This document shows positions 3,733 through 27,085 of a stretch of DNA of 46,599 nt, piece after piece. The notes beneath the pieces were generated by a model that saw only the letters and a program-made list of their open reading frames with translations, searched no databases and was not told the origin of the DNA. The stretch comes from Thermodesulfovibrionales bacterium (GTDB taxonomy: Bacteria > Nitrospirota > Thermodesulfovibrionia > Thermodesulfovibrionales > SM23-35): NCBI GenBank assembly GCA_049700155.1, contig JBNAVX010000021.1:1-46599 (forward strand), read 5' to 3'. Position numbers and translations under genes: made by a program. The stretch's first letter is position 1. The number at the start of each line of letters is the position of its first letter.

Positions 3733-4155
3733 ATGGTTAAAACTAAAGTATCAAAAGACTTAATGATTGATGTTTTTGAGTATCCTCATGTACCTTATTG
3801 GTTTACAGTAAGGCAGGCAATAACCGTTATTAAAAAGTCTCTTATTGGGACAGAAAAATGTGTTCACCCTCTTGCAGTCTTAGTGTTTGATGAGAAGTAT
3901 AACATCCTTGGCACTCTGACTCTGAAGGATGTCCTGAAAGGTCTTGATTCCAGAGAAAAGGCTGAGCGTCCTGTAAGTGAGGTTATGGTCCCTGCGAAAC
4001 ACTTTGTTGAACCTGATGACCCTGTTAGTAAGGCAGCAGACTTGATGCTCAACAATGATCTTGTGTTGCTTCCTGTTATAGAAAATAAAAAGAAATTTGT
4101 CGGTGTTATAAGAATGATAGAGATATTTGACGAACTAACTAGTGCGATTTTATAG
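3733..4155 (+). CDS. Stand-alone CBS-pair domain protein (short paralog)
   Basis: Strong RBS aaaggagg. Sequence pattern KDLM...VxxD...LGTLTLKDVL and VSEVMVP...LLPVIE...VGVIRMIEI is typical of CBS pairs. Paralog of 8630-9148. Confidence 0.7.
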   Translation: MVKTKVSKDLMIDVFEYPHVPYWFTVRQAITVIKKSLIGTEKCVHPLAVLVFDEKYNILGTLTLKDVLKGLDSREKAERPVSEVMVPAKHFVEPDDPVSKAADLMLNNDLVLLPVIENKKKFVGVIRMIEIFDELTSAIL

Positions 4156-4252: not shown

Positions 4253-5158
4253 ATGGCAAAAAGAATTATATCTAAAAAAGTTACAGAACAAAGCAAGAAA
4301 AAAGAAAAAAAGATAACTGCAGATCAAATATGCCCAGCAGCAAAGTTAGAAAAGTTGCTTTTGGCAACAGATCGTTCTGACTTTAGCGAAGGTGCTGTTA
4401 GGGAAGCAATCAAATTGGCAAAGACCTGTGGCAGTAAATTACACATAATATCTGTCACTGAAACACCCGACATTCGTGCCTTTAACTATCCTCTGACAGC
4501 ATTTGAAAAATTAGAAATATTAACAAAACAACATCTTGAATCATTAAAAGGATTGGCGGAAAAGGATGGTATCATTTGTGAGACAATTATACGTCGAGGT
4601 CCTGAAGCTTACAAATATATTGTTGATGAAGCAGAAAAGAGAAAAGTAGATATGATAATAATGGGCAGACGGGGAAAGACAGGAATTACACGACTTATGG
4701 TGGGCAGCGTGACTGCTAAGGTTATAGGATATGCACCTTGCAATGTTATGGTTGTTCCAAGGTTCGCAAGAATCACCTTTGAGAAAATTCTTGTTCCAAC
4801 TGACGGCTCAATCTTCAGTGAGTTAGCATCCCGTGAAGCTATAAGTATTGCAAAACTCACTAAAGGTAGTCTTATTGTACTTTCTGTTGCTAAAAAGGAA
4901 GAAAATCTTCCATTTGCTGAGGCAAGTGTTAATATTGTAAAAGAGTTTGCTGAAAAAGAGGGAGTAAAGATTGAGGCATTGACCCTTGTAGGTAATCCTC
5001 ATGAGGTTATAGTAGAAACTGCGGAGAAGCAGAAAGCTGGTTTCATTATTATTGGGAGTCATGGCAGAAGTGGCATAGAAAGAATTCTTATGGGAAGCGT
5101 AACAGAGAGGGTGATAGGGCATGCAGGTTGCGCTGTTTTAGTTGTAAGGAAGCAATAA
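4253..5158 (+). CDS. Tandem universal stress protein (2 x UspA domains)
   Basis: Two USP repeats, each ending with the ATP-binding-type motif (MGRRGKTGITRLMVGSVTAKV; IGSHGRSGIERILMGSVTERV). Close paralog of 27086-27925. Confidence 0.85.
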   Translation: MAKRIISKKVTEQSKKKEKKITADQICPAAKLEKLLLATDRSDFSEGAVREAIKLAKTCGSKLHIISVTETPDIRAFNYPLTAFEKLEILTKQHLESLKGLAEKDGIICETIIRRGPEAYKYIVDEAEKRKVDMIIMGRRGKTGITRLMVGSVTAKVIGYAPCNVMVVPRFARITFEKILVPTDGSIFSELASREAISIAKLTKGSLIVLSVAKKEENLPFAEASVNIVKEFAEKEGVKIEALTLVGNPHEVIVETAEKQKAGFIIIGSHGRSGIERILMGSVTERVIGHAGCAVLVVRKQ

Positions 5159-5166
5159 AAGTAAGA

Positions 5167-7686
5167 TTATACTTTCTCTGTAAGATGTTGGTTGATGAAG
5201 TCTTCTGCATACATATCAGCAATAGTATCATTGAACATTACCATGTCAAGTTGTTTTGTATAGGCTGTTAATTTACCCAAAATGACTAATATCGCTTCAA
5301 TAGTAGATTTTTTATATTTGGTTAGGATTGCATCTATTAAATCTTCTTTAACATTCATTCTAAAACCTATCTTTTTGAGTATTTCTGTTATAAGCCTGAC
5401 TCGCCTCAATCTTCTGTCATGAGAGGCTCCGCCTCCTTTAAAGAAGAACTTTATGTAATTATCATTCAGGTTATCACCTGCATATGCTTCAATTAATGAG
5501 AAATGATAACCAAGTCTTATACTGAAATTCATATAGTTTTTTGACAGTATGGCAAAACTTTTTTCTCCCATCTCATAAAGCTTTTCTTCTACTGTAGTAG
5601 CATTTACTATAGTACCTAAAAAACCTTTAAAATCTGGTTTTGGTCCGGGCCACCTCATACCTTTCATGCCCTTTAAGAGTGCAGAAAATGGAATAGAGTA
5701 AATATCCTCTGGAGATGCTTTTTTTATGTTATCTCTGATACCACCATCTATATCTAATAAGTGAACATCAATAGGGATTCCTGCTACCAGATCTATCGTC
5801 TTTGTTTTCTTGATATCATGACCTTTACCTATATCAAACATCTCCTGCATTGCTATCTCATGTGCAAAGCGGGTTATATCATGAAATGTCTCACAATATT
5901 GAGGTTGAAAGTTCTCATCCATAGGGTCAACTAAATTCAATGGTGCAATCTTTTTTAATACCCTTTCGAGTATTTTAAATAAATGTGTATCTTTAAAGGG
6001 CTCTTTCTTTTTAAACCCGTACTCAAGTAATTCATTAACCTTACCTTCATATACATTACAATTTATTGCATCTACTGTTATCTCCTGCCCATTTTTTATT
6101 ATGCGCGTTGCAACCTCTGTATCAAGGATTGTTGGAACCTGATACTCTCTGGAGAGAGAAGCCATATGTCCTGTTGCGCTTCCAACATCCGTAATAATTG
6201 CTGATGCCTTCTTCATGATTATCACAAATTTTGGAGATGTATGTCTTACCACAAGGACTGAACCTTCAGGAAAATCCTTAAGATTTTCTTCATCTCTAAG
6301 TATAAAAGCCTTACCATAACCAATACCTTTACATGCAATCACGCCTTTATCAAGAATGACATTATATCCCTTTATCCTTGTTGGAATGTTTTTTTCAGGC
6401 ATGAGATACTGGACTCTTAAAGGTCTTGTCTGTAATATGTATAATTGATTATCTCTACTGATAGCCCACTCAATATCTTGAGGACAACCATAGTGTCTTT
6501 CTAAATCAAGTGCATATCCTGCCAGTGTTCTTATCTGGTCATCATTAATGCATTGTTTTCCTTTCAATTCATCGGGAACAGAGACCTCTTTAAGACCTTC
6601 ATCTTTCTCACAAATAAGCATCTTACATTGATTTGATATCTTTTTGTCGAGAATAATCCCTGCAGGGCTTTTTGAGACTATGTATGAATCTGTACTTACA
6701 GTTCCGTCAACTACTAACTTCCCTATTCCATATACACCATTAATTATGAGGTAATCAGCTTCTGCATTGTTTGGATCTATTGTATAAATCACACCGCCTG
6801 CCTTTGCATCCACCATATTCAAAACACCGACAGCCATTACCATTTCTCCTTCTGAAAACCCTTTTGTCTTGTAATAGAATATTGCACGAGGAGTGAATAG
6901 ACTTGCTACAACCTCTTTGTATTTCTGAAGAATCAAATCTCCCGGAACATTGAGGAAAGTGGCATACTGCCCTGCAAAGCTATATTTACCATTCTCAAGA
7001 ATGGCACTGCTTCGCACTGAGACAGGAGTTTCTCTACCAATCTTTTTACAAAGCATCGAGTAAGCATCTTTAATAGCCTTTTCTAAATCATATGGAATAT
7101 CTGATTCTATTATCATATCCTGTATATCTTTACTAACCTTATTAACCTCCTCCATATTCTCTATGGTAAGCGATGACAGTGATAATAGTGTTTTATTTAT
7201 CTTTTCTGTAAACATATTAAGTTCCATAAATTGTGAGAATGCATACGCACTTATTACGAAGCCTTCAGGTATTGGAATACCAAGGCGATTTTTTATCTCT
7301 CCTAACTGTGCAATTTTACCACCTGCAACATTTACCATATTAGATGTTAAATTTTCTAAAGGAATGGTGAGTTCACTAACAGGAATTTCTATTTTGAAAG
7401 AAAGGATTTTTTCTATCTCTTCATTAATATAATCATATATTTTAAAAAGCTGTTGATGCTTATTTTTAGATAGGATATTAAGGTTCTCAATTATATTCAA
7501 GACCCCTTCTCTAATCAACCTCACATTTGTTTTTATATAATTTCTATCAAAAAGATATTCACCTGAAAGTTTTTCCTCCATATCTGCCATAATCTCAAGG
7601 ACAAAGTTGTTTTTATTGAGAAGTTGCTGAAAAATGCTGTACTTATCTTTTAAAGATTTTCTTAGTAATGAAGATTCCTGGTTCAT
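5167..7686 (-). CDS. PEP-utilizer family phosphotransferase: N-terminal helical region + PPDK_N-type ATP-grasp + swivel phospho-His domain + unrecognised ~290-aa C-terminal domain
   Basis: ATP-grasp motifs VAGGKIAQLGEI, RSSAILENGKYSFAGQYATFLNV, DIEWAISRDNQLYILQTRP. Swivel domain TDVGSATGHMASLSREYQVPT (His codon 6166-6168). The C-terminus lacks the PEP-utilizers_C TIM-barrel motifs I know. Confidence 0.8.
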   Translation of the reverse strand: MNQESSLLRKSLKDKYSIFQQLLNKNNFVLEIMADMEEKLSGEYLFDRNYIKTNVRLIREGVLNIIENLNILSKNKHQQLFKIYDYINEEIEKILSFKIEIPVSELTIPLENLTSNMVNVAGGKIAQLGEIKNRLGIPIPEGFVISAYAFSQFMELNMFTEKINKTLLSLSSLTIENMEEVNKVSKDIQDMIIESDIPYDLEKAIKDAYSMLCKKIGRETPVSVRSSAILENGKYSFAGQYATFLNVPGDLILQKYKEVVASLFTPRAIFYYKTKGFSEGEMVMAVGVLNMVDAKAGGVIYTIDPNNAEADYLIINGVYGIGKLVVDGTVSTDSYIVSKSPAGIILDKKISNQCKMLICEKDEGLKEVSVPDELKGKQCINDDQIRTLAGYALDLERHYGCPQDIEWAISRDNQLYILQTRPLRVQYLMPEKNIPTRIKGYNVILDKGVIACKGIGYGKAFILRDEENLKDFPEGSVLVVRHTSPKFVIIMKKASAIITDVGSATGHMASLSREYQVPTILDTEVATRIIKNGQEITVDAINCNVYEGKVNELLEYGFKKKEPFKDTHLFKILERVLKKIAPLNLVDPMDENFQPQYCETFHDITRFAHEIAMQEMFDIGKGHDIKKTKTIDLVAGIPIDVHLLDIDGGIRDNIKKASPEDIYSIPFSALLKGMKGMRWPGPKPDFKGFLGTIVNATTVEEKLYEMGEKSFAILSKNYMNFSIRLGYHFSLIEAYAGDNLNDNYIKFFFKGGGASHDRRLRRVRLITEILKKIGFRMNVKEDLIDAILTKYKKSTIEAILVILGKLTAYTKQLDMVMFNDTIADMYAEDFINQHLTEKV

Positions 7687-7725
7687 TGATTTTTTTAATA
7701 ATATTATAAACCCCTAAAAAAACTC

Positions 7726-7754
7726 TTGACAAGGAAAAAAAATTAGTATATTAT
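7726..7754 (+). promoter_or_regulatory. Sigma70-like promoter for the GntR gene (TTGACA-17-TATTAT)
   Basis: TTGACA 7726-7731, 17-nt spacer, TATTAT 7749-7754; 38 nt upstream of ATG 7792. Confidence 0.45.
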
Positions 7755-7787
7755 TATAACAAATATCAAAGATAATAATGTTATAAT
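7753..7787. promoter_or_regulatory. Perfect 9-bp inverted repeat ATTATAACA-N17-TGTTATAAT, candidate operator
   Basis: Read directly. It overlaps the putative -10 and lies between the divergent GntR gene and the PEP-utilizer gene. Confidence 0.35.
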
Positions 7788-7791
7788 CTTT

Positions 7792-8535
7792 ATGAATTTT
7801 CTAAACAGACAAAACTATCGTAAACTTTATGTTCAACTTTATGAAAAGCTGCGTAAAAAGATTGAGGACAAAGAATGGTCAGTTGGCACTCAGATACCAA
7901 CAGAACAGGAACTTTGTAAACTTTTTAATGTAAGCAGGGCAACAGTGAGGAGCGCTATTTCAGAGCTTGTGAGGCATGGTTATCTGATACGCCAGCAGGG
8001 TAAAGGGACCTTTGTTTCTAAAAAGATTGTGTCAGGCAAGCTTAACATGTTCATAACTTTTGGTGAAATAATGCTTGATGAAGAGGTAGATTTTTCAACA
8101 GAAGTTCTTGCTCAAACAATATTGATGCCCATTGACGACCTTCAGGATAAACTCAGGGTATCTGGAGACAGGCATATAATTTATATAAAAAGGTTAAGAA
8201 AGATTGATAACAAACCTTTTATGGTTCAGGAATCATATATACCTTTTCATATATGTCCACAGCTCTTAGAAGAGGATATCCAGAGAAATTCCCTTTTTGA
8301 ACTTTTTGAGAAAAAATATGGAATCCAGATTACTCGAGTAAGATCACTATTTGATGTGATATATTTCAACACAGATGAGGTTAAAATTCTTGGTTTATCC
8401 GAGACTTCACCTACACTACTTTTAAACCAGCATTTCTTTTCAGGTGAGACTCTAATAATGTATATGCGTTCTATTAAGAAACCCGGAAGTTTTGAACTCT
8501 CTATGGAATTTGAAAGAAAGACAGGTGAGATGTAG
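7792..8535 (+). CDS. GntR-family transcriptional regulator, HutC-like (wHTH + UTRA-type effector domain)
   Basis: N-terminal GntR HTH pattern LPTEQELCKLFNVSRATVRSAISELVRHGYLIRQQGKGTFV. C-terminal length and pattern are consistent with UTRA. Confidence 0.8.
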   Translation: MNFLNRQNYRKLYVQLYEKLRKKIEDKEWSVGTQIPTEQELCKLFNVSRATVRSAISELVRHGYLIRQQGKGTFVSKKIVSGKLNMFITFGEIMLDEEVDFSTEVLAQTILMPIDDLQDKLRVSGDRHIIYIKRLRKIDNKPFMVQESYIPFHICPQLLEEDIQRNSLFELFEKKYGIQITRVRSLFDVIYFNTDEVKILGLSETSPTLLLNQHFFSGETLIMYMRSIKKPGSFELSMEFERKTGEM

Positions 8536-8629
8536 GATGGATTAGGATTTTGGGGAGGTGAGAAAAAAATAAATAGATGATACCTTGGATATCAAAGGGA
8601 AATAATTGAGAATAATTGAAGGAGTTTCT

Positions 8630-9148
8630 ATGAAAAAAAACAAAGTCGTAAAGGATTTAATGATTGATGTTTTCAAATATCCGCACGTGCCTTATTGGTT
8701 TACGATAAGACAAACGATGATGATAATTAAAAAATCTCTTATAGAGAGCGAGAAACATTTTTATCCACTTGCGATATTAATATTCGATGAAAAATATAAT
8801 CTACTTGGTACATTGAGTATGAAGGATATTATTAGAGGACTTGAGCCCAGGTTTATGAAGACTTCAGAAAAGGCACAAGCTTATATATCAGAGGAAAAAG
8901 AACTATCAATTATATGGGATACCCTTTTTACTAAAGAATCAAAACAGCTTGCAGAGAAGCCTGTAAGTGATATTATGGTGCCTGCTAAGTTTTTTGTTGA
9001 ACCGGATGATCCCATAACAAAAGCAGCATATATAATGATATCCCATGGATTAGATTTATTGCCTGTTCTGGATAATAAGAAATTCGTAGGTCTTATAAGG
9101 ATGCCAGAGATATTTGATGAATTATCAAATGTAATTTTAAAGGAATAA
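8630..9148 (+). CDS. Stand-alone CBS-pair domain protein (long paralog)
   Basis: ATG 8630 behind RBS gaaggag (the ORF track starts at TTG 8606). Colinear with 3733-4155 but has about 35 extra residues between the two CBS motifs. Confidence 0.7.
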   Translation: MKKNKVVKDLMIDVFKYPHVPYWFTIRQTMMIIKKSLIESEKHFYPLAILIFDEKYNLLGTLSMKDIIRGLEPRFMKTSEKAQAYISEEKELSIIWDTLFTKESKQLAEKPVSDIMVPAKFFVEPDDPITKAAYIMISHGLDLLPVLDNKKFVGLIRMPEIFDELSNVILKE

Positions 9149-9164
9149 AATAGGGGGAGATAAA

Positions 9165-10688
9165 ATGGCAGAGGAAAAGGATGAAAGGGTTATAGCACCC
9201 GGTTTACCACCGCCACCTGAGGAGATAGTAGTTGCACCTCCCAAGGTTAAGATTGACTGGAAGAGGATATTTTTTATCCTTTTAGGATTAACTTTCTTTT
9301 TTCTTATTTATTTCAGTCCTCCCTGGCCTGATGCAGTTGACCCTTTGGGCAAGCATTTTGTTTTGTCACAGCAGGGGAAGTCAGCAATTGCATTATTTCT
9401 TCTTGCAGGCATATGGTGGGTATTTGAGGTTATCCCAATAGGTGCAACTTCTATTGCTATTGGTGTATTTCAGGCAATATTTGGTATTCGTTCTGCAAAA
9501 GATGCTTTCAAAGACTTTTTTGACCCTTCTGTATGGTTTATATTTGGCTCTGTAGTTATTGGTCTTGCATTCACAAAGACAGGACTTACAAAACGCCTTG
9601 CTGTTAAAATGCTCGGCATTGTAGGAGAGAAAACGAGCATGATACTGTTAGGTTCATTAATTGTTGTAGCAGGACTCACCCTTGTTATGGCTCATACAGC
9701 AGCAGCAGCTACTGTTTATCCGATTCTTCTTGCAGTCTATGCCCTTTATGGAGAAGGAGAGAAACAGACTAAATTTGGTAAAGCCCTTTTTATAGGTATG
9801 GCATATGCAGCGGGTGCCGGAAGCATTATTACATATTTAGGAGCAGCACGCGGACCTGCTGCTGCAGGTATGTTCAAGGAATTTACAGGTAGAGAAATGG
9901 GGTTCTTTCAGCTTCCCCTCTATATGTTTCCAGTTGCAGCAATCATGATCTTTGTAATATGGGTATATTTGATGATTTTCCTGAAGCCTGAGAAAAAGAC
10001 GATCCCTGGTCTGAAAGAGAAAGTAAAGGAGCTTGCAAAGGAAATAGGGCCTATGACCGGGCCCGAGAAGTTTGTGATTGTTACTGTTGCGCTTGTTGTT
10101 TTATTAATGGGTGCTCAGGCATTTGTCCCTGCCTTAAAGGGAATAGACAGGGCAGCAATCATGCTCATCGGAACGCTGTTGTTCTTCCTGTTCAGGATAC
10201 TGACAATAAAGGAGCTTGAGGACATGCCATGGAACATCATCCTTCTCTTTGGAGGGGCAATGAGCATTGGTTTCTGCCTCTGGAAATCAGGAGGAGCACA
10301 GTGGCTCGCAATTGAGTGGCTTGCATTATTTAAACAGGCACACTGGATGATATTCGTACTGAGCGTTGCATTCTTCGTCCTCGTAACGACCAACTTTATC
10401 ATGAATGTGGCAGCGATTGCTCTTTCATTGCCTATCTCCCTTGTTGTCGCAGGTTATATGGGTGTAGCGCCTGAGGTAATAGTCTATGCGTCTCTTGTTA
10501 CAGCAGGGATGCCGTTCGTGCTTTTAATTGGTGCTGCACCGAATGCAATAGCCTACGGCTCCGGGCAATTCAGTACGGGCGAATTTTTCAAACACGGCAT
10601 ACTTCCCTCTATCATCTTGATGGTTGTTCTCGCAGCGGCAATCTATTTCCTCTGGCCGATTCTGGGTATGCCGGTGTTGGTTAAATAA
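9165..10688 (+). CDS. Anion permease of the ArsB/NhaD - DASS (SLC13-like) superfamily
   Basis: 507 aa and polytopic, with a two-fold internal architecture and a central hydrophilic loop (KPEKKTIPGLKEKVKELAKEIG). Family call rests on overall pattern only. Confidence 0.6.
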   Translation: MAEEKDERVIAPGLPPPPEEIVVAPPKVKIDWKRIFFILLGLTFFFLIYFSPPWPDAVDPLGKHFVLSQQGKSAIALFLLAGIWWVFEVIPIGATSIAIGVFQAIFGIRSAKDAFKDFFDPSVWFIFGSVVIGLAFTKTGLTKRLAVKMLGIVGEKTSMILLGSLIVVAGLTLVMAHTAAAATVYPILLAVYALYGEGEKQTKFGKALFIGMAYAAGAGSIITYLGAARGPAAAGMFKEFTGREMGFFQLPLYMFPVAAIMIFVIWVYLMIFLKPEKKTIPGLKEKVKELAKEIGPMTGPEKFVIVTVALVVLLMGAQAFVPALKGIDRAAIMLIGTLLFFLFRILTIKELEDMPWNIILLFGGAMSIGFCLWKSGGAQWLAIEWLALFKQAHWMIFVLSVAFFVLVTTNFIMNVAAIALSLPISLVVAGYMGVAPEVIVYASLVTAGMPFVLLIGAAPNAIAYGSGQFSTGEFFKHGILPSIILMVVLAAAIYFLWPILGMPVLVK

Positions 10689-10737: not shown

Positions 10738-10905
10738 ATGGCAGAGAACATTAGAACGTATAAAGATTTAAGAGTATTTCAACATGCAATGGAATCTGCT
10801 ATGAGGATTTTTGAAATTACAAAGACTTTCCCCGTTGAAGAACGGTATTCCCTTGTTAATCAGATAAAACGGTCATCAAAAAAGGAAGGTTACCATGGCT
10901 TTTGA
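10738..10905 (+). pseudogene. Truncated four-helix-bundle protein gene ('23S rRNA intervening-sequence protein' family), N-terminal ~47 aa retained
   Basis: MAENIRTYKDLRVFQHAMESAMRIFEITKTFPVEERYSLVNQIKRSS matches the family N-terminus (DLxVWQxA...FPxEERYxLxxQxRRAA). It then diverges and stops at 10903-10905, overlapping the next gene's start. Confidence 0.6.
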
Positions 10906-11608
10906 AAAAGTTATACATAAATATTTTGACAAGGTTCTTACTGAGGTTGATTTTGTGAAAAAGACCTATAATGCTCTGGAAAAATACGGATTCAATGACG
11001 AAAATGCAATTGCATCTGTCTGTATATGCAGGGATGAGATATCCCAACCACTGAGGAGTATAATAAAACATATATGGGGTGAAGCATTTGACCTTTCAAG
11101 TCTCGGAGGAATGTTTTTTGCTGGTAAGGCTGGGCTAAAAGCAATAATGCATCATGCGCCTGTATTTGCAGGTAAAGAACGATATGTCTTTTATGCCTTA
11201 CCCCACATTGCAATTGGAGAGAATGGCAAGTTAGGTGTGTGTAAAAGAAGAGGTAGAAAAGAAGAGTCAAATGCTTGCGGGGCATTAACTGTATTTTTGA
11301 ATGAACTTTCAAGCAAAAAACTGAATATTGCGATGGATTATGAAGACATTGAGTTGAGTTTAATTAGAACTCGTCTTTTAAGAGAGCTTACATATGGTCA
11401 TGTTCCTGACCTCATACAATTGACAAAAATAGCGTTAAAAGCCATTAAAGAAGACATAGAAAATGCACTGAAAAAAACTATAGACAAAAAACACAGCGAC
11501 TATGCATTAATAATGGGGATACAGATAAATGCCCCTGACGGCAATTATATCTGGCCTGCTGAATGTTATGTATTTGTGAATGGAATTAAAAAAGATGTTA
11601 CATTATAA
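10895..11608 (+). CDS. LCIB/LCIC-like beta-carbonic-anhydrase-fold protein (tentative)
   Basis: Motifs CICRDE (C43/C45), LPHIAIG (H104), NACGAL (C128). The Cys-His-Cys spacing (about 59 and 24 residues) matches my recollection of the LCIB-family zinc ligands. 27 nt upstream of the V-ATPase E gene. Confidence 0.5.
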   Translation: MAFEKVIHKYFDKVLTEVDFVKKTYNALEKYGFNDENAIASVCICRDEISQPLRSIIKHIWGEAFDLSSLGGMFFAGKAGLKAIMHHAPVFAGKERYVFYALPHIAIGENGKLGVCKRRGRKEESNACGALTVFLNELSSKKLNIAMDYEDIELSLIRTRLLRELTYGHVPDLIQLTKIALKAIKEDIENALKKTIDKKHSDYALIMGIQINAPDGNYIWPAECYVFVNGIKKDVTL

Positions 11609-11635
11609 AAAACTGGAGTATATAAGGAGTTTCTG

Positions 11636-12247
11636 ATGGCAGAAGATATTAAGAGTTTAATAGAGAAAATTCAGCAAGAGGGAATTAAGGCAGCAGAAGA
11701 AAAAGCAAAAGAAATAGAAGATGAGGCAAAAAAACAGGCAGACCTTATATTAGAGAATGCGCGTGTACAGGCAGAAAGATTGCTTTCCGAGACAAAAGAT
11801 AATCTTGCCAGAATGGAGCAGAGTCAAAAGGCACTTCTTGCTCAAGCAGGAAGGGATCTAATCCTTACCCTAAAAAAAGAGATCAATGCGATGCTTGAGA
11901 GGCTTATCAAACAAGAAATTCAAGAATCTATGAGACCTGAAGAAATGGCAGATATTATTAGTCAGATAATCAAAAGTGACACGACACTAAGCAAAGGGGA
12001 CATTATTGTTACACTTAGTCAAACGGACAGGGATAAATTAGAGAAAGGATTTTTAGCCAAACTTAAAGAAGAGGTTAAAAGAGGGATTGTCTTGAGGCCC
12101 TCAGAAGAAGTTCGCTCAGGTTTCCTCATCAGCTTTGATGGTAATAAATCATATTTCGATTTTAGCGACAAAGCACTGGCAGAATATATAGCTTCATACC
12201 TTAAACCAAAGCTTGCTGAATTACTTAAAAACGCTCTTAAGGAATAG
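11636..12247 (+). CDS. atpE: V-type ATPase subunit E
   Basis: About 200 aa with a long charged N-terminal coiled coil (IKAAEEKAKEIEDEAKKQADLILENARVQAERL); first position in the V-ATPase operon. Confidence 0.8.
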   Translation: MAEDIKSLIEKIQQEGIKAAEEKAKEIEDEAKKQADLILENARVQAERLLSETKDNLARMEQSQKALLAQAGRDLILTLKKEINAMLERLIKQEIQESMRPEEMADIISQIIKSDTTLSKGDIIVTLSQTDRDKLEKGFLAKLKEEVKRGIVLRPSEEVRSGFLISFDGNKSYFDFSDKALAEYIASYLKPKLAELLKNALKE

Positions 12248-12250
12248 ATT

Positions 12251-12823
12251 ATGGTAAAATTTTATACTTTTTTGGTTTCAAGTTTGCCAGCTTTGCTTTT
12301 TGGAATGAAGCCACCTTTCTCATACGAGCGTTTTCTTGAAATCTGCAAGCCTCTTATCCCCAGAGAGGACTTTCTATTATTAAGTACCCTTCCAATCACA
12401 ATTGATGAATATAGCAAAGGCATAAGACATCCTATGGTAGAGAAGTGGCTTGCCTTTGATACAATGCTAAGAAACGAATTAGTCAAAATAAGAGCTTATA
12501 AAATGAAAATAGATGAGTCTAAATACATGCGTGGTAAAACACCTATTGATATGACAATTTATCAGACCGCTATTTTAAGCACTAAGAGTACCTCGATACT
12601 TGAGGCAGAAAAAATATTGGATGAAGCACGTTGGCAAGCTCTTGATGATTTATGTTTTGGGCATTATTTTGACATTGATTACTTGATCCTTTATGCATAT
12701 AAGCTAAAGATTTTAGAACGCTGGGAAAGGATTCATTCTCAGGATAAAGAAAGACTCACAATAGTATATACCGAATGGACTACTGGTGAAACAATTACAC
12801 AGCCGGGGTCTGCTACAGGGTGA
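12251..12823 (+). CDS. DUF2764-type V-ATPase-associated protein (occupies the slot between E and A in Bacteroidetes/Chlamydia-type operons)
   Basis: N-terminus YTFLVSSLPALLFG is typical of the family, and the operon position fits. Confidence 0.6.
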   Translation: MVKFYTFLVSSLPALLFGMKPPFSYERFLEICKPLIPREDFLLLSTLPITIDEYSKGIRHPMVEKWLAFDTMLRNELVKIRAYKMKIDESKYMRGKTPIDMTIYQTAILSTKSTSILEAEKILDEARWQALDDLCFGHYFDIDYLILYAYKLKILERWERIHSQDKERLTIVYTEWTTGETITQPGSATG

Positions 12824-14586
12824 AAAAAATGGAAGAGAAAAGAATAGGTTTAATTGAGAAGGTAAGTGGGTGTATGGTGGCGGTAAGATTCAATACTTAC
12901 GCTATTCAGAATGAAGTAGCTTTTATTATTCACGACCAGGTCCGTCTGAAGTCTGAGGTAATAAGGATTCGAGGCAACATTGCAGAACTGCAAGTTTTTG
13001 AACCTACTGTAGGTGTAAAAGTAGGAGAAAAAGTAGAATTTACAGGAGAGCTTTTGTCTGTTGAACTCGGACCCGGGCTCCTTGGGCAGATATTTGATGG
13101 GCTTCAGAATCCTTTACCTGCTTTAGCAGAAAGATGTGGTTTCTTTTTAAGAAGAGGCACTTATTTAAGGGCGCTACCAGAAGATGTTGAGTGGAATTTT
13201 ACTCCTACAGTAAAGGTAGGAGATTTAGTTCGCGCCGGTGAAAAAATAGGCTTTGTTCCAGAGATGATATTTAAACACTTCATTATGGTACCATTTAGCT
13301 TAAAAGGAACTCTGGAAGTAGTCAACATAGTTAAAGCAGGTAATTATACCCTCAGAGATAAAATAGCTCAGGTTAAAGACTCGGAAGGTAAAATCCATGA
13401 TATCTATCTCTCTCAAAAGTGGCCTGTAAAGATACCTATTCGTGCATACGCGGAGAAACTTAGACCCACAGAGCCTCTTGTTACAAAGATGCGTATCATT
13501 GATTCACTATTTCCTGTCTGCAAGGGAGGTACATATTGTATTCCCGGACCCTTCGGTTCAGGCAAGACTGTCTTACAACAACTGACAAGCAGGCATGCAC
13601 AGATAGATATTGTGATTATAGCTGCCTGTGGAGAACGTGCAGGTGAAGTTGTGGAAACACTGAGAACCTTTCCTTATCTGAATGATCCACGCACGAATAG
13701 ACCATTAAGTGAGCGCACTGTTATTATCTGTAATACCAGCTCTATGCCTGTAGCAGCAAGAGATTCAAGTGTATATACCGCAGTTACTATAGCAGAGTAT
13801 TACCGCCAGATGGGTTTACATGTTTTATTGCTTGCAGATTCAACTTCTCGCTGGGCGCAGGCGATGCGCGAGATGTCAGGTCGTCTTGAGGAGATTCCAG
13901 GAGAAGAGGCTTTTCCTGCATATCTTGAATCCCGTATCGCCTCTTTTTATGAAAGGGCAGGAATAGTTAGATTATACGATGGAAATCTTGGCTCCGTTAC
14001 CATTGGCGGGACAGTAAGTCCTGCAGGTGGAAGCTTTGAAGAGCCTGTAACCCTCGCAACATTAAAAGTGGTTGGTGCATTCCATGGTCTTTCATGGGAT
14101 CGCTCTAATGCAAGGAGATACCCTGCAATTGACCCATTAATAAGCTGGAGTAAGTATAGTGGCATTATTGATCCTAAGCAGGTCCAGCGTGCAAAAGAAT
14201 GCTTAAGAAGGAGTAACGATATTGCACAGATGATGAAGGTGGTTGGTGAAGAAGGAACTTCCCTTGTAGATTATGTAGATTATTTAAAAGGAGAATTCCT
14301 TGATTTTGTATATTTACAGCAAAATGCTTATGATCCAGTAGATGAAGCTACAGATGAAGATAGGCAAAAATACGTTTTCGGGTTCATTTATGAGAATGTA
14401 CTTGAAAAAGAATTTGCCTTTAAAGATAAAGAGGATGCATTGCATTTTTTCCACATATTAAGACAACTCTTTCGCGGTTGGAATTCCTCTGTCTGGGATT
14501 CAGATGAGTTCAGACGCACACAAGAGGAGATAGAAAGTACATTAAAGAGAAAATTAGTGAAAGGGGAGGAGAAGGTTTATGCCTAA
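12820..14586 (+). CDS. atpA: V-type ATPase catalytic subunit A
   Basis: Walker [46 protein letters not shown]. Start is GTG 12820 (overlapping the upstream stop) or ATG 12829. Confidence 0.95.
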
Positions 14587-15889: not shown

Positions 15890-15903
15890 ACTCAATTTTT
15901 GAA

Positions 15904-18287: not shown

Positions 18288-18303
18288 GAAAAGGAGAGGA
18301 GAT

Positions 18304-22443: not shown

Positions 22444-24696
22444 TTGAAGAGAAAAGAAAGGTCTCCTGGAGAAAAATACTACAACATAAGAAGGGCTATC
22501 ATTATTTTTGGAATCTTTTTGATAGTATTACTTATGAGTGCGCTATATCTGGGCATGGTCTCTGCAAGACATATGAAAGAGATAATACGTGACGATTTCA
22601 ACAAACAGCAACTCGTATTAGCAAGGTATGCTGCGAATCGTATTGAAAACAGTCTTGAATTTATTAGAAGAGAGCTTTCACTATTGAGTCTTTCCCCATC
22701 TATCCAATATCTGGAGTCATCTTGGTCGAACAGGATGAACACTACCTTATCAGGGGTAGTGGATGAAGGGGTAATTGAAATAAGACTTTTGGATAACAAA
22801 GGGAAGACAGCTTATATTGTTGACAAACTCGGGGCAGCTCGGATAATGAAAGGTGATTTTCAGAATACTGAATATTTTAAATGGGCTCTTATAAAAGAAA
22901 ATAAAAATAGAATCTATATGGGTGATATCATAAAAATTAAAGAGCATTATCCTGTAAGACTCATAATGAATCTAGCTACTCCAATATATGAAGAATCTGT
23001 TGATGAGGCACATCCAATACCTACTGGACGTTTCTCTGGAGTGCTTATATTTACAGTAGATGTGACCCACTTAGTCAGAAATTCTATCAAAGATATTAGA
23101 TCAGGGAAGACAGGATATGCCTGGGCAATAGATAACAGAGGCATATTTTTATATCATCCGAAAAAGGAATTCATCGGAGAAGATTCCTTTGAAGTACGTA
23201 GCAGACTTTACCCAAAGATCTCCTACGACCGGATTAACATAATACAAAAAGAAGGTATGCTTAAAGGTAAAGAAGGAACTGGATGGTATATTTGTGGATG
23301 GCATGGAGATATAGAAACCGAAATGAAAAAATTGATAGCTTATGCGCCTGTTTTTCTGACAAGAGGTAAAGATAATATATGGTCAATAGCTGTAGTTGCA
23401 CCAATGAGCGAGGTCGAGGGACCAATACATTTTATTTACACCAGACAGTTTTATATTCAGGGAGTTATTGTATTAGTTATCATACTTGGTAGCATATATG
23501 TAATAAACTTTGAAAGACGGTGGGCTAAGACGCTTGAGGAAGAGATAACATTGAAAACAGAATATTTAAAAAAATCACTCGATAAACTGGAGAAATCAGA
23601 AGAAAAATACAGAACCCTTGTTGAAAGTGCAGAAGACTTGATATTCACTGTGGATGAAAAAGGAAATTACTTATCTATGAATAGATGTGCAGCGCGATTC
23701 TTTGGAAAAGATCCGAATGAATTAATCGGTAAAAACATGTATGACCTATTTTCTGTAGAAAGTGCAGAATTACAGATGGGTTTTATCAGGCAGGTATTCA
23801 GCACTGGAAATAGCGTAAATGTAAAATATCCAGTAGAAATTGGCAAAAGCGAATACTGGCTTACCAGCAATTTTGTTGGTCTTAAGAATGAAAATAACAA
23901 GGTCTCAGCTGTTCTTGGGATTTCAAGAGATATTACAGAGAGAAAAAAGATAGAAGATGAGCAGATGTACAATACAGAAAGGCTGGCGTCCCTTGGAAAG
24001 CTGACTGCTAGTGTAGCCCATGAGCTTAATAACCCAATAGCTATAATCCTTGGATTTACAGATCGTCTTTTAGAAAAAACTGACCCCAACAGTAAAGAAT
24101 ATGAGATGCTTAAAGCCATAGAAAGGCAGGGTCTTAATAGTAAAAGGATTATTGAAAATCTTCTGGGCTTTGCCAGATATCCTGAGAAAACAGAATATTG
24201 TGCAGATGTCAATAAAAGCCTTGAAAGTGTTCTTATCGTGGTAGAAAATCTCCTTGTTTCAAAGAAGATCATCTTAGAGACAAACCTTACAGAAGGTTTA
24301 CCAAGGGTAAGGGGAGATTCGGGACATTTACAGCAAGTCTTTATGAATCTGATTACCAATGCTGTTTCTGCTATGGAAGGTGGGGGGATTTTGACTATCT
24401 CTACACGACTTAATGAGACCAGTAACAGGGTTGAGATACTTTTTAAGGATACAGGTCATGGGATCAAAAAAGAATATAGAGACAAAATATTTGAAGCATT
24501 TTTTACAACTAAAAAAGTTGGTGAAGGGACAGGATTAGGGCTTTCTGTATGTCAGGGAATTGTGACAAGATACGGTGGAGAGATAACCTTTGAGACAGTC
24601 TCTGAAGATGAAGATAGAGAGAGGAAAGGGACTACTTTTATAGTGTCCCTCCCTGTTGTTCCTTTAGAAGTTGAAAAGTGCTATGGTCAAACTTAA
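22444..24696 (+). CDS. Membrane sensor histidine kinase (HK2): TM - large extracytoplasmic Cache-like domain - TM - coiled coil - PAS - HisKA - HATPase
   Basis: TTG start behind gagg. TM segments at about aa 18-40 and 335-355. H-box VAHELNNPIA. The transmitter is very similar to HK1's. Confidence 0.85.
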   Translation: MKRKERSPGEKYYNIRRAIIIFGIFLIVLLMSALYLGMVSARHMKEIIRDDFNKQQLVLARYAANRIENSLEFIRRELSLLSLSPSIQYLESSWSNRMNTTLSGVVDEGVIEIRLLDNKGKTAYIVDKLGAARIMKGDFQNTEYFKWALIKENKNRIYMGDIIKIKEHYPVRLIMNLATPIYEESVDEAHPIPTGRFSGVLIFTVDVTHLVRNSIKDIRSGKTGYAWAIDNRGIFLYHPKKEFIGEDSFEVRSRLYPKISYDRINIIQKEGMLKGKEGTGWYICGWHGDIETEMKKLIAYAPVFLTRGKDNIWSIAVVAPMSEVEGPIHFIYTRQFYIQGVIVLVIILGSIYVINFERRWAKTLEEEITLKTEYLKKSLDKLEKSEEKYRTLVESAEDLIFTVDEKGNYLSMNRCAARFFGKDPNELIGKNMYDLFSVESAELQMGFIRQVFSTGNSVNVKYPVEIGKSEYWLTSNFVGLKNENNKVSAVLGISRDITERKKIEDEQMYNTERLASLGKLTASVAHELNNPIAIILGFTDRLLEKTDPNSKEYEMLKAIERQGLNSKRIIENLLGFARYPEKTEYCADVNKSLESVLIVVENLLVSKKIILETNLTEGLPRVRGDSGHLQQVFMNLITNAVSAMEGGGILTISTRLNETSNRVEILFKDTGHGIKKEYRDKIFEAFFTTKKVGEGTGLGLSVCQGIVTRYGGEITFETVSEDEDRERKGTTFIVSLPVVPLEVEKCYGQT

Positions 24697-24739
24697 TTTA
24701 ATCCGAGTAATGCAGATGTTTATAATTCATGACATAAAT

Positions 24740-24861
24740 GCAGGACATAGTATTCTCGCTCATTCTCGGTCGTTCCGACCTCCGAGGCTTTTGCCTCTTT
24801 ATATTAGAAATATTCTCAAAGGAATATCAGCAAAAGAATCCGCTCAAATACTATGCCCTGC
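24740..24861 (+). repeat. Structured palindromic element, copy 1 (outer stem GCAGGACATAGTATT / AAATACTATGCCCTGC)
   Basis: Shares the blocks AGTATTCTCGCTCATTCTCGG, CCTCCGAGG and AATCCGCTC(A/G)AATACT with 39352-39460. The internal hairpins differ in sequence but pairing is kept. Confidence 0.6.
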
Positions 24862-24945
24862 TTTTTGTGCCACAGTCGCCTGCGACTACAATGGTTTTAT
24901 AATGAACTTTGCTTAATTCAGGTATTTTGCCTGAGGGGAGGGAAT

Positions 24946-25350
24946 ATGGCAGAGATTTTAATTGTAGATGATGAAGTGGATATGCTTGCCCTTCTTGCTA
25001 TGATCATCACAGAAAAGACCAATCACAGGGCAACAACCACAAATAATCCTTTTGAGGTACCTAAATTAATTAAAGAAGGTAATTTCGATTTATTGATTGC
25101 TGATCTAAAGATGCCTGGTATGGGTGGTATAGAACTCATTGATGAAGTTAGAAAGATAGATAAAATTATTCCTATACTTATTATTACCGCTTATGGTTCT
25201 ATTGAATCAGCAGAAGAGGCGATACATAAGGGTGCTTATGATTACATCACAAAACCCTTTCGCAAAGAGCAGATACTTATTGCTATTAATAGGGCACTTG
25301 AATGGAAAGAGATGAAGAGAGAGATTGATTATTTAAAAGGGAAAAAATAA
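24946..25350 (+). CDS. Single-domain response regulator (CheY-like REC)
   Basis: ATG 24946 behind gaggggaggg. VDDE, ADLKMPG, ITAYG and TKPF pocket residues are present, and there is no output domain. Confidence 0.85.
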   Translation: MAEILIVDDEVDMLALLAMIITEKTNHRATTTNNPFEVPKLIKEGNFDLLIADLKMPGMGGIELIDEVRKIDKIIPILIITAYGSIESAEEAIHKGAYDYITKPFRKEQILIAINRALEWKEMKREIDYLKGKK

Positions 25351-26575: not shown

Positions 26576-26585
26576 AAATAAATTT

Positions 26586-26613
26586 AAAACTCAAAAGTCA
26601 AAACTCAAAACTG
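26586..26613. repeat. Heptamer tandem repeat AAAACTC AAAAGTC AAAACTC AAAACTG
   Basis: Read directly; lies in the 85-nt spacer between the TSUP gene and the small membrane protein gene. Confidence 0.7.
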
Positions 26614-26660
26614 AGAATCTTATAAAAATTTTAAACTTTTTATGAAATCAGGAGGGTTTT

Positions 26661-27083: not shown

Positions 27084-27085
27084 TC

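What the first reader, a model, noticed from the sequence alone, without database searches (positions are those of the whole stretch)
5167..7686. PEP-synthase-like phosphotransferase whose C-terminal 'substrate' domain is not the usual TIM barrel
The ATP-grasp (PPDK_N) and swivel phospho-His domains are textbook (VAGGKIAQLGEI; RSSAILENGKYSFAGQ; DIEWA...LQTRP; GSATGHMASLSRE). The last ~290 aa carry none of the PEP-utilizers_C motifs I know. This stretch includes CETFHDITRFAHEIAMQEMF, RWPGPKP, YMNFSIRLGYHFSLIEAYAGDN and FFFKGGGASHDRRLRR. There is also a ~110-aa N-terminal helical extension (IMADMEEKLSGEYLFDRNYI). So the enzyme probably phosphorylates, via a His relay, an unknown acceptor, much as rifampicin phosphotransferase re-uses the same two domains. 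It is flanked by a tandem USP (convergent, 8-nt gap), a CBS protein and a divergent GntR/HutC regulator.
Basis: partly seen in the sequence, partly recalled or inferred. Interest (0 to 1): 0.65.

Follow-up and report, generated by a model that had tools for sequence, protein, structure and literature searches.

The report
Dikinase-like enzyme with orphan acceptor module
This gene encodes a PEP-synthase-like ATP/histidine phosphate-relay enzyme whose usual pyruvate-binding barrel is replaced by a previously undescribed two-part module, which defines a large uncharacterised protein family in sulfur-cycling anaerobes and points to an unknown phosphorylation or signalling reaction.

Summary
ORF 5167-7686(-) encodes 839 aa with an intact PPDK_N ATP-grasp (aa 119-434) and a swivel phospho-His domain (His507). 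Residues 1-110 and 556-839 match nothing in Pfam, NCBIfam or PDB sequences. AlphaFold models the C-terminal region confidently as an alpha+beta fold, not a (beta-alpha)8 barrel. Foldseek finds no PDB neighbour (best E 0.17).

New findings:
- The N-terminal extension and the C-terminal domain form one module. Natural ~390-aa proteins consist of just these two parts joined together (model pTM 0.84). The ATP-grasp/swivel cassette sits in the linker between them.
- The module defines about 2000 clusters at 50% identity, mostly full-length ~850-aa proteins of Nitrospirota/Thermodesulfovibrionia.
- The kinase cassette was lost repeatedly. The window also holds a conserved paralog (20624-22255) with no ATP-grasp and His->Tyr in the swivel.
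- H728, G752 and R762 are invariant, next to a KGGG...RRxRR loop. This suggests an anion or phosphate pocket.
- Synteny is conserved: a divergent GntR-CBS-DASS-LCIB operon driven from back-to-back promoters, and a CheY-like regulator plus dCache kinase downstream.

Best reading is a His-relay phosphotransferase with a novel acceptor or ligand module tied to two-component signalling. The acceptor is unknown. It is a new variant of a known kind.

The parts
5167..7686 (-). Whole gene 'Q': 839-aa dikinase-like protein (N-ext / ATP-grasp / swivel-His / C-domain)
   Evidence: ORF; domains; orthologs at 61-83% identity over 100% of its length
7357..7686 (-). N-terminal part of the N+C module (aa 1-110): three long helices, conserved motif MADMEEKLSGEYLFD
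   Evidence: AF2 helices 3-39, 48-72 and 79-96. Matches the N-terminus of standalone module proteins. Absent from PpsA models, which start aligning at aa ~106
6385..7332 (-). PPDK_N ATP-grasp domain (aa 119-434)
   Evidence: Pfam PF01326, E 3e-94. 32% identity to PpsA 2ols; Foldseek E 8e-26. K124, R225, E406, Q419 and R421 conserved
6991..6993 (-). Asn232 in the RSSAxxED loop: the only position where the query departs from a >=90% family consensus (Asp in 226 of 237)
6043..6354 (-). Swivel / PEP-utilizers mobile domain (aa 445-548)
   Evidence: Pfam PF00391, E 1e-19; aligns to the EI and PPDK phospho-carrier domains
6166..6168 (-). Catalytic His507 (GSATGHMAS)
   Evidence: Codon verified. His in 285 of 295 aligned relatives and in 134 of 136 representatives
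5170..6021 (-). C-terminal part of the N+C module (aa 556-839): orphan alpha+beta domain
   Evidence: No Pfam or NCBIfam hit. AF2 pLDDT mostly 85-95 with non-TIM topology. No PDB fold match
5401..5439 (-). Strand, Gly-rich loop and basic helix start: K750-GGG-ASHD-RRLRR762, a candidate anion/phosphate-binding site
   Evidence: G752 and R762 invariant in 150/150; R758 in 135/150 and R761 in 121/150. Beta 744-750 followed by helix 756-773
5503..5505 (-). Invariant His728 (RLGYHFS) in a beta-hairpin of the C-domain
   Evidence: 150/150 representatives; invariant in alignments A1-A3
7703..7732 (-). Sigma70-like promoter toward Q (TTGTCA-18-TATAAT)
   Evidence: Best site in the scan, 11/12. The pattern is conserved in 16 of 32 Q-GntR intergenic regions against 0.065 expected
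7726..7754 (+). Sigma70-like promoter toward the GntR operon (TTGACA-17-TATTAT); its -35 overlaps that of the Q promoter
   Evidence: The core CTTGACAA/CTTGTCAA is present in 24 of 32 regions
7792..8535 (+). GntR/HutC-type regulator (GntR HTH + UTRA), divergent from Q
   Evidence: Pfam. Within 0.8 kb upstream of the family gene in 31 of 67 loci
8606..9148 (+). CBS-pair protein (CBS_b)
   Evidence: Pfam. A homolog is present in 58 of 83 loci, and within 1.3 kb upstream in 44 of 67
9165..10688 (+). DASS-family anion:Na+ symporter
   Evidence: Pfam and TIGR00785 above cut-off. Nearest solved relatives are VcINDY and SLC13. Present in 37 of 83 loci
10895..11608 (+). LCIB-type beta-carbonic-anhydrase-like protein
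   Evidence: Pfam PF18599, E 5e-57. LCIB/LCIC structures at E 1e-40 to 1e-42. Present in 25 of 83 loci
4253..5158 (+). Tandem universal stress protein, convergent with Q (8-nt gap)
   Evidence: Pfam Usp x2. The same arrangement occurs only in close relatives L049, L030 and L031
3733..4155 (+). Small CBS-pair protein (CBS_a), a paralog of CBS_b
   Evidence: Pfam; 86% identical orthologs in L030 and L049
20624..22255 (+). Paralog Q2 (543 aa): N-ext + swivel-like domain with catalytic His replaced by Tyr213 + C-domain; no ATP-grasp
   Evidence: BLASTP: 50% identity over aa 435-834 and 44% over aa 6-100 of Q. The Tyr is also present in orthologs L009 and L010. Codon at 21260-21262
22444..25350 (+). 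dCache-PAS histidine kinase (22444-24696) and single-domain response regulator (24853-25350) next to Q2. Orthologs of this pair flank the family gene in most genomes
   Evidence: Pfam. The RR lies within ~1 kb downstream in 41 of 66 loci, and 36 of those are followed by the dCache kinase

Best explanation
Q is an ATP-dependent histidine-relay phosphotransferase of the PpsA/PPDK superfamily. In it, the PEP/pyruvate TIM barrel has been replaced by a previously undescribed bipartite 'N+C module' (aa 1-110 plus 556-839).

Proposed mechanism:
(1) The ATP-grasp domain binds ATP and pyrophosphorylates or phosphorylates swivel His507, releasing AMP. This is inferred from strong homology and conserved catalytic residues.
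(2) The swivel domain rotates on its flexible linkers to the N+C module. This is inferred from the domain order, which is the same as in PpsA and PPDK.
(3) The module holds an anionic ligand in a pocket formed by invariant H728, G751-753, R758/R761/R762, K750, D603 and D814, and this ligand receives the phosphoryl group. This step is inferred only.

The module is an autonomous folding and binding unit. It also occurs alone, or with a His-less swivel, and in those forms it probably acts as a non-catalytic binder or regulator, or is served in trans.

Expression is coupled to a GntR-CBS-DASS transporter-LCIB carbonic anhydrase operon through back-to-back promoters. In most genomes the gene is also paired with a dCache histidine kinase and a CheY-like regulator. 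So the enzyme probably acts on, or senses, an imported small anion (a carboxylate, bicarbonate or a sulfur oxyanion) under two-component and adenylate (CBS/USP) control. The identity of the acceptor is unknown.
For: Relay intact. PPDK_N E 3e-94 and swivel E 1e-19. 32% identity to solved PpsA over aa 108-555. Foldseek E 8e-26 to PpsA and E 1e-22 to RPH and HpeI. His507, E406, Q419 and R421 are conserved in >95% of relatives.

C-domain is not a TIM barrel and is an orphan. Evidence.

N-ext and C-domain are one unit. Standalone N+C proteins exist. Their model has pLDDT 86 and pTM 0.84, with a low-confidence linker exactly where the cassette is inserted. No complete family member among the representatives lacks the N-ext.

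Active-site-like conservation. H728, G752 and R762 are present in 150/150; D603 in 147 and D814 in 148. The Gly-rich loop runs into a basic helix N-terminus.

Family size. 2002 representative clusters, and 115 of the best 150 have the full architecture.

Context. CBS in 58, GntR in 44, DASS in 37 and LCIB in 25 of 83 loci. RR plus dCache kinase lies downstream in 41 and 36 of 66 loci. The divergent promoter is conserved.
Against: No biochemical evidence exists, and the acceptor is unidentified. The module persists without the relay: N+C-only proteins arose repeatedly from full-length ancestors. Some of these loci show no full-length paralog nearby (L001 and L003). The window's paralog Q2 and its orthologs have Tyr in place of the catalytic His, yet keep all C-domain invariants. 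This fits a ligand-sensing or protein-interaction role at least as well as a catalytic acceptor site. The tight pairing with a response regulator and kinase suggests signalling rather than metabolism. The query itself carries D232N in a loop that is otherwise 95% conserved, and the effect of this change is unknown.
Confidence: 0.5

Rival explanations
1. The N+C module is primarily a regulatory or signalling module. It would be a ligand sensor, a dimerisation core, or a docking site for the adjacent CheY-like response regulator. The ATP-grasp/His cassette would then be an optional effector whose phosphoryl group goes to a protein (the RR, CBS or USP) or simply cycles ATP to AMP. Under this view the family is an output or accessory component of the dCache kinase / CheY-like two-component pathway.
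For: An RR (>=45% identity to the window's RR) lies within ~1 kb downstream in 41 of 66 loci, followed by a dCache kinase in 36. Tandem Q-kinase-RR triads occur in L078 and L081. The kinase cassette was lost repeatedly while the module was kept. The His->Tyr paralog is conserved and flanked by two kinases and an RR. ATP-grasp-less forms sit next to RR plus kinase with no separate ATP-grasp gene. The window region 19-36 kb is rich in kinases, a sigma54 activator, an RR-Lon protease and USPs.
Against: 115 of the best 150 representatives keep a complete and apparently functional relay. An invariant His, several Arg and a Gly-rich loop look more like a small-anion or phosphate site than a protein interface. 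In the homologous enzymes the position after the swivel domain is the second catalytic site. No fusion to receiver or kinase domains was found.
Confidence: 0.3
2. Q is an ordinary PEP synthase or PPDK whose C-terminal PEP/pyruvate TIM barrel is merely very divergent. This is the database annotation 'phosphoenolpyruvate synthase / pyruvate, water dikinase'.
For: The domain order is the same as in PpsA. The best family hits are the PpsA models NF005057 and TIGR01418. Sources name relatives 'pyruvate, water dikinase'. From memory, FSIRLGYHFS faintly resembles the barrel motif FSIGSNDLTQ, and a near-invariant Cys598 exists.
Against: PpsA HMMs stop at aa 555 and score about half their cut-offs. PF02896 is absent even at E<=10. 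The predicted topology is an antiparallel meander plus helices, and the FSIRLGYH stretch is a beta-hairpin. Foldseek with the clean module model finds no PpsA, PPDK or EI barrel, although those structures are in the library and were hit through the other domains. The profile against PDB sequences finds nothing.
Confidence: 0.02
3. Q is a xenobiotic, antibiotic or phenolic phosphotransferase of the RPH / YvkC / phenylphosphate-synthase / HpeHI type, and inactivates or activates an organic hydroxyl compound.
For: The ATP-grasp is 28-31% identical to RPH and HpeI. These enzymes show that the relay can serve non-TIM acceptor domains. Phenylphosphate synthase uses a CBS-pair accessory subunit (my knowledge of Thauera PpsABC), and CBS proteins are conserved neighbours here. 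One relative lies in the benzene-degrading ORM2a genome (L074).
Against: The domain order differs: in RPH and PigC the swivel is at the C-terminus, after the acceptor domain. RPH, PigC and RedH models score 240 bits or less against cut-offs of 999-1350. The module model has no fold match to the RIF-binding domain. No carboxylase or aromatic-degradation genes are in the conserved neighbourhood. The conserved partners are an anion symporter, a carbonic anhydrase and a two-component system.
Confidence: 0.08

Closest known systems
Phosphoenolpyruvate synthase (PpsA; pyruvate, water dikinase, EC 2.7.9.2) and pyruvate phosphate dikinase (PPDK)
   Same: ATP-grasp (PPDK_N) followed by the swivel phospho-His domain, in the same order. 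About 32% identity to solved PpsA over aa 108-555. The catalytic His, the T-x-H motif and the ATP-grasp residues are conserved.
   Different: There is no PEP-utilizers_C TIM barrel. A 110-aa helical N-terminal segment and a 284-aa alpha+beta C-terminal domain instead form a separate module with no Pfam, NCBIfam or PDB relative. Scores are below the curated PpsA cut-offs.
Rifampin phosphotransferase (RPH) and the PigC/RedH ligases
   Same: They re-use the ATP-grasp plus swivel-His relay with a non-TIM acceptor domain. The ATP-grasp is ~31% identical.
   Different: In RPH the order is ATP-grasp, acceptor domain, swivel. Here it is N-ext, ATP-grasp, swivel, C-domain. The acceptor modules are unrelated. 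The equivalog scores are far below cut-off. The genomic context also differs.
Split phenol-type dikinases: phenylphosphate synthase PpsABC (Thauera) and HpeHI (Rhodococcus; PDB 9goj)
   Same: The relay components can be separate polypeptides. A CBS-pair protein is an accessory subunit of phenylphosphate synthase (my knowledge). Here, reduced architectures and conserved CBS neighbours exist.
   Different: No separate ATP-grasp gene accompanies the reduced forms. There are no carboxylase genes. The acceptor-binding parts are not detectably related.
PTS Enzyme I / EI-Ntr (PtsP)
   Same: A swivel phospho-His domain is used for signalling-type phosphotransfer. The swivel aligns to EI at E ~1e-11.
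   Different: EI is charged by PEP through a TIM barrel and docks HPr through a helical subdomain. Q has an ATP-grasp, no barrel, and no HPr-like partner in its neighbourhood.

Membership tests
PpsA/PPDK (PEP-utilizing dikinases) | N-terminal PPDK_N ATP-grasp nucleotide-binding domain | tested here: met
   PF01326, E 3e-94, aa 119-434; Foldseek to 2ols, E 8e-26
PpsA/PPDK (PEP-utilizing dikinases) | Central swivel domain with catalytic His (T-x-H) | tested here: met
   PF00391, E 1e-19; GSATGH507MAS; His conserved in the family
PpsA/PPDK (PEP-utilizing dikinases) | C-terminal PEP/pyruvate-binding TIM barrel (PEP-utilizers_C, PF02896) | tested here: not met
   No hit at E<=10. PpsA HMMs and PDB chains stop at aa ~555. 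AF2 topology is not (beta-alpha)8. No barrel found by Foldseek
PpsA/PPDK (PEP-utilizing dikinases) | Score above the curated equivalog cut-off (NF005057 598 bits; TIGR01418 739.75 bits) | tested here: not met
   397.3 and 390.2 bits
PpsA/PPDK (PEP-utilizing dikinases) | ATP + pyruvate -> AMP + PEP (+Pi/PPi) activity | not testable with these tools
   Requires an enzyme assay
Rifampin phosphotransferase (RPH) | Domain order ATP-grasp, rifampin-binding domain, C-terminal swivel; equivalog score >=999 bits | tested here: not met
   NF041857 scores 240 bits against a cut-off of 999, and matches the ATP-grasp only. In Q the swivel is followed, not preceded, by the extra domain. The module model has no fold match to the RPH middle domain
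Prodigiosin ligases PigC/RedH | Equivalog score >=1300 bits | tested here: not met
   235 and 214 bits
Unnamed 'N+C module' family (defined here) | N-terminal three-helix segment with the (M/I)AD(M/L)EEK..F(D/E) motif, co-occurring with the C-domain | tested here: met
   Both stretches match the A2 profile in 115 of the best 150 representatives and in the query
Unnamed 'N+C module' family (defined here) | C-domain invariants: T/S600-x-x-D603, W679-P680, N720-x-S-x-x-x-G-Y-H728, K-G-G-G/A, R758-x-x-R-R762, T-K/R-Q-x-D814 | tested here: met
   All are present in the query
Anti-phage defence systems (PADLOC) | Match to any PADLOC model | tested here: not met
   No hits for Q, Q2, the standalone module, CBS or USP

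The most novel reading that the evidence does not exclude
The N+C module is a new protein fold that binds a small inorganic or organic anion brought in by the co-regulated DASS symporter, for example bicarbonate (hence the LCIB carbonic anhydrase) or a sulfur oxyanion. Full-length Q would then be a new kind of dikinase that phosphorylates that anion, or runs in reverse to regenerate ATP from the AMP that sulfate reducers make in bulk. Its activity would be gated by a CheY-like regulator from a dCache kinase. The His-less and cassette-less paralogs would act as ligand-sensing partners. This would amount to a previously unknown link between two-component signalling and dikinase chemistry in sulfur-cycling anaerobes.
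Probability: 0.15. Interest if true: 0.85.

Novelty: new variant of a known kind. Interest (0 to 1): 0.62.

Why it matters
Public annotation calls thousands of these proteins 'phosphoenolpyruvate synthase' or 'PEP/pyruvate-binding protein', although they lack the pyruvate/PEP-binding domain. Metabolic reconstructions of Nitrospirota and Thermodesulfovibrionia that count them as gluconeogenic PpsA are therefore probably wrong.

The family offers a well-defined orphan domain. It has no Pfam or NCBIfam model and no PDB fold neighbour, but it has a clear candidate active site, three natural architectures and a highly conserved gene neighbourhood. This makes it directly testable.

Identifying its ligand could reveal a new acceptor for the ATP-grasp/swivel-His relay. 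Known acceptors so far are pyruvate, rifampicin, phenols and glucans. It could alternatively reveal a new output mechanism for dCache/CheY-type two-component systems.

Tried and rejected
(1) Divergent TIM barrel. Rejected on HMM, topology and Foldseek evidence. I looked for canonical PpsA, PPDK or PtsI genes in the window and the 84 loci to build a barrel profile for hhalign. None were found, so that formal profile-profile test was not run.

(2) The resemblance, recalled from memory, of FSIRLGYHFS to the barrel motif FSIGSNDLTQ. That stretch is a beta-hairpin in the model, so this was rejected.

(3) PilZ-like reading of N720-x-S-x-x-x-G and R758-x-x-x-R762 (from memory). The spacing and motif order do not fit PilZ, and no PilZ hit appears at E<=10. 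Not pursued.

(4) Weak Foldseek hits: YbjN/T3S-chaperone-like 2plg and 4h5b, arginine kinase 9fho, and uncharacterised viral proteins. All have E>0.05 and TM<=0.5, so they are not significant.

(5) Informative domain fusions among family members of unusual length. None were found beyond PPDK_N and PEP-utilizers.

(6) A separate ATP-grasp subunit next to ATP-grasp-less members. None was found.

(7) Anti-phage defence. No PADLOC hits.

(8) Literature. Six searches found no description of the family or of the gene cluster.

(9) Expression data. No RNA runs hold the locus; only hot-spring metagenome DNA runs do.

(10) Substrate hints from the DASS transporter. The nearest solved relatives carry dicarboxylates, citrate or sulfate alike, so this was uninformative.

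No pocket or contact analysis could be done.
Full report
OBSERVATION. Pfam assigns aa 119-434 to PPDK_N (E 3e-94) and aa 472-540 to the PEP-utilizers mobile domain (E 1e-19). Scanned separately at E<=10, aa 1-117 and 558-839 hit nothing meaningful. NCBIfam PpsA equivalogs align only to aa 106-555 and score 397 and 390 bits against cut-offs of 598 and 740. RPH, PigC and RedH models score 240 bits or less against cut-offs of 999-1350. Solved PpsA chains (9dae, 2ols, 8a8e) align only to aa 108-560. The neighbours are as described: CBS 3733-4155(+), tandem USP 4253-5158(+) convergent with an 8-nt gap, and GntR/UTRA 7792-8535(+) divergent.

THE C-TERMINAL DOMAIN IS NOT A TIM BARREL. An AlphaFold2 model of the full protein was built on an 84-sequence family alignment (pLDDT 81, pTM 0.66). 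It places the C-terminal region at pLDDT mostly 85-95. The order of elements is: helices 551-559, 568-580 and 601-620; short strands 631-633 and 641-647; helix 665-675; a disordered conserved loop 684-707; a four-strand antiparallel meander (710-715, 718-725, 728-735, 744-750); a Gly-rich loop; helix 756-773; strands 776-780 and 783-789; and helices 793-812 and 820-834. That is not a (beta-alpha)8 pattern. Foldseek with the full model hits PpsA, RPH, HpeI, PPDK, EI and D-Ala-D-Ala ligases, but only through the ATP-grasp and swivel domains.

THE N-EXTENSION AND THE C-DOMAIN ARE ONE MODULE. A search with aa 558-839 returned 195 relatives. Among them are ~385-420-aa proteins whose N-terminus matches Q aa ~10-105 and whose remainder matches Q aa ~560-835, with nothing in between. 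One of them (P0073) was modelled with the whole family as its alignment. It folds as a single confident unit (pLDDT 86.4, pTM 0.84). Its only low-confidence stretch (aa 122-126) lies exactly where Q carries the ATP-grasp/swivel cassette. This clean model has no significant neighbour in the PDB (best E 0.17, no hit at E<=1e-3, no TIM barrel) or in the viral BFVD library (best E 0.057). A profile of the module finds nothing in PDB sequences. Pfam at E<=10 finds nothing in any of 15 members, and NCBIfam finds nothing. The module is therefore an orphan at both sequence and fold level, within the limits of the libraries available. AlphaFold DB could not be searched.

FAMILY SIZE, ARCHITECTURES AND CONSERVATION. 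The full-length architecture is common. More than 120 clusters at 61-83% identity cover 100% of Q. They are ~840-870 aa, carry only PF01326 and PF00391, and are named 'PEP/pyruvate-binding domain-containing protein' or 'phosphoenolpyruvate synthase'. They come mostly from Nitrospirota and Thermodesulfovibrionales MAGs.

The module profile matches 2002 representatives (50%-identity clusters) at E<=1e-3 and 719 at E<=1e-30. Of the best 150:
- 115 have N-ext + ATP-grasp + swivel + C-domain;
- 6 have N-ext + swivel + C-domain;
- 6 have N-ext + C-domain only;
- the rest are fragments.

The swivel His is present in 134 of 136, and E406, Q419 and R421 of the ATP-grasp are present in >98%. In the C-domain, H728, G752 and R762 are present in 150/150, D603 in 147 and D814 in 148. 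Other invariant or near-invariant positions are T600, W679-P680, S710, Y718, N720, G726-Y727, N743, K750, R758, R761 and T810-K/R811-Q812.

A strand (744-750) leading through K-G-G-G into a helix that begins D-R-R-L-R-R is the classic geometry of an anion or phosphate site. Together with an invariant His and two Asp, it looks like an active or ligand-binding site. This is inference; I could not inspect coordinates.

REDUCED FORMS ARE REAL AND RECURRENT. The nearest relatives of several reduced proteins are full-length proteins, not other reduced ones:
- P0002 (N+C): 82% to a full-length protein against 57% to any reduced form;
- P0290: 77% against 44%;
- P0316 (N+swivel+C): 86% against 38%.

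So the cassette, or the ATP-grasp alone, has been lost several times while the module was retained.

The window itself carries such a paralog, Q2 (20624-22255, 543 aa). It has the N-ext (44% identical), a swivel-like domain and the C-domain (50% identical over 400 aa). The motif GSATGHMASL is changed to GSPAEYALSL. Orthologs in L009 and L010 read GSATGYMAS, so the His->Tyr change is conserved. All C-domain invariants are kept. Other ATP-grasp-less members keep the His. They sit either directly after a full-length paralog or alone, and never beside a separate ATP-grasp gene.

GENOMIC CONTEXT. 211 loci in species-representative genomes encode a relative. The best 80 are overwhelmingly Nitrospirota (Thermodesulfovibrionia, Dissulfurispiraceae, Ca. 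Magnetobacterium/Magnetominusculus). A few are Thermodesulfobacteriota (including ORM2a) and one is a Chloroflexota MAG. An Acidobacteriota contig carries a standalone module.

I used the window's proteins as tblastn probes on 83 loci. Homologs occur as follows: CBS in 58, GntR in 44, DASS in 37, LCIB in 25, the single-domain RR in 64, the dCache kinase in 44, and TauE in 30. The canonical order is LCIB<-DASS<-CBS<-GntR | Q-> | <-RR<-dCache-kinase (<-USP<-TauE).

Counting only loci with enough flank:
- an RR of >=45% identity lies within ~1 kb downstream in 41 of 66, followed by the dCache kinase in 36;
- CBS or GntR lies immediately upstream in 47 of 67;
- DASS is present in 24 of 45 and LCIB in 21 of 45.

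These are lower bounds. A USP directly downstream, as in the window, occurs in only 3 of 66. Even the Acidobacteriota standalone module sits divergent from GntR-CBS-DASS-LCIB. In two deltaproteobacterial loci, Q-kinase-RR triads are repeated in tandem (L078, L081). Many genomes have two tandem full-length paralogs, one next to GntR and one next to the RR. The window's Q groups with the GntR-proximal type, while Q2 occupies an RR/kinase context.

REGULATORY REGION. The 105-bp Q-GntR spacer contains the two best sigma70-like sites of the region. These are TTGTCA-18-TATAAT toward Q (7732->7703) and TTGACA-17-TATTAT toward GntR (7726->7754), with overlapping -35 hexamers. The core CTTGTCAAG is present in 24 of 32 such spacers. 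The full Q-direction pattern is present in 16 of 32, against 0.065 expected from shuffles. An ATAAYRTTAT pseudo-palindrome occurs 25 times against 0.5 expected. In most relatives the ATG follows the -10 by 5-7 nt, which suggests a leaderless mRNA. In the window's clade it follows by 16 nt. This supports co-regulation of Q with the transporter/carbonic-anhydrase operon, plausibly by the GntR/HutC protein.

HOW IT MOST LIKELY WORKS. Shown by homology: Q has a complete ATP-grasp and a swivel-His relay in the PpsA order. Inferred: ATP charges His507, and the swivel carries the phosphoryl group to the N+C module. There, an anionic ligand bound by H728, the GGG loop and the Arg cluster is phosphorylated. 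The reverse reaction is also possible. Activity would be set by the CheY-like regulator and by the adenylate-sensing CBS and USP partners. I give this reading a confidence of 0.5.

The main rival (0.3) is that the module is chiefly a sensor or interaction module of the two-component pathway, and that the relay targets a protein. It explains the cassette-less and His-less forms and the RR/kinase synteny better. It explains the near-universal retention of an intact relay and the pocket-like invariants less well. The two readings share a common core: the module binds something through its invariant site. An ordinary PpsA/PPDK (0.02) and an RPH- or phenol-type xenobiotic kinase (0.08) are disfavoured by the tests listed under membership.

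CAVEATS.
- The query differs from a >=90% family consensus at a single position, D232N in the RSSAxxED loop of the ATP-grasp (226 of 237 relatives have Asp). I cannot tell whether this affects activity.
- The gene caller's version (807 aa, starting at M33) truncates the conserved N-ext. Homology supports the 839-aa start.
- No transcript data exist for the locus. It derives from a hot-spring metagenome.
- No paper describing the family or the cluster was found.

VERDICT. The feature is real and well conserved, and it is mis-annotated in databases. It is a new variant of the PpsA/PPDK/RPH kind of His-relay phosphotransferase, defined by an orphan bipartite module with a probable anion-binding site and a conserved link to a two-component system and an anion-transport/carbonic-anhydrase operon. 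Interest is 0.62.

Noticed in passing
window 20624-22255 (+): A second family member, Q2 (543 aa): N-ext + swivel-like domain + C-domain with no ATP-grasp. The catalytic His is replaced by Tyr213 (codon 21260-21262). The substitution is conserved in orthologs (L009, L010), and the gene is flanked by a PAS kinase, a dCache kinase and a CheY-like RR.
   Followed up: yes
window 7687-7791: Back-to-back sigma70-like promoters with overlapping -35 hexamers (CTTGTCAAG core), conserved in 24 of 32 Q-GntR spacers. ATAAYRTTAT pseudo-palindromes are candidate GntR operators. In most relatives the -10 lies 5-7 nt from the ATG, which suggests leaderless mRNA.
   Followed up: partly
window 6991-6993 (-): Asn232 replaces the Asp that 226 of 237 relatives have in the RSSAxxED ATP-grasp loop. 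It is the query's only deviation from a >=90% consensus. The functional effect is unknown.
   Followed up: partly
window 25601-27925 (+): The triad TauE permease, 140-aa protein without any Pfam hit (26661-27083), and tandem USP recurs in the same order in at least 12 related loci (e.g. L022, L024, L030, L035, L043, L054). A second TauE-USP pair is at 34917-36852.
   Followed up: partly
window 31846-33954 (+): A response-regulator receiver fused to an AAA+ Lon protease (702 aa). The same fusion lies near the family gene in the Acidobacteriota locus L001 (55% identical) and in L013 (66%), next to a sigma54 activator and a kinase pair (window 28439-31344).
   Followed up: no
window 10895-18768 (+): The LCIB-type carbonic-anhydrase-like gene is followed directly by a V-type ATPase operon (VatpA/VatpB-like ORFs at 12820-15889). 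This adjacency is specific to the window's lineage: only L024 shows a V-ATPase subunit, and there it is next to the Q2 region.
   Followed up: no
window 3733-4155 and 8606-9148 (+): Two paralogous CBS-pair proteins share the unusual N-terminal motif DLMIDVF(E/K)YPHVPYWFT(V/I)RQ. Weak NCBIfam similarity to the CBS regulator HhpR and to the c-di-AMP-binding protein CbpB.
   Followed up: no
window 7591-7686 (-), aa 1-32 of Q: The gene prediction on record (P0121, 807 aa) starts at Met33 and cuts off conserved N-terminal residues. Orthologs and standalone modules support the longer ORF. Most relatives extend a further ~10 residues (MxxxxKxFxK...).
   Followed up: yes
L003 6270-7421; L001 14721-15506: Genes of 383 aa and 261 aa with no Pfam hit sit inside otherwise conserved module/CBS/DASS/TauE neighbourhoods. 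They may be further uncharacterised components.
   Followed up: no
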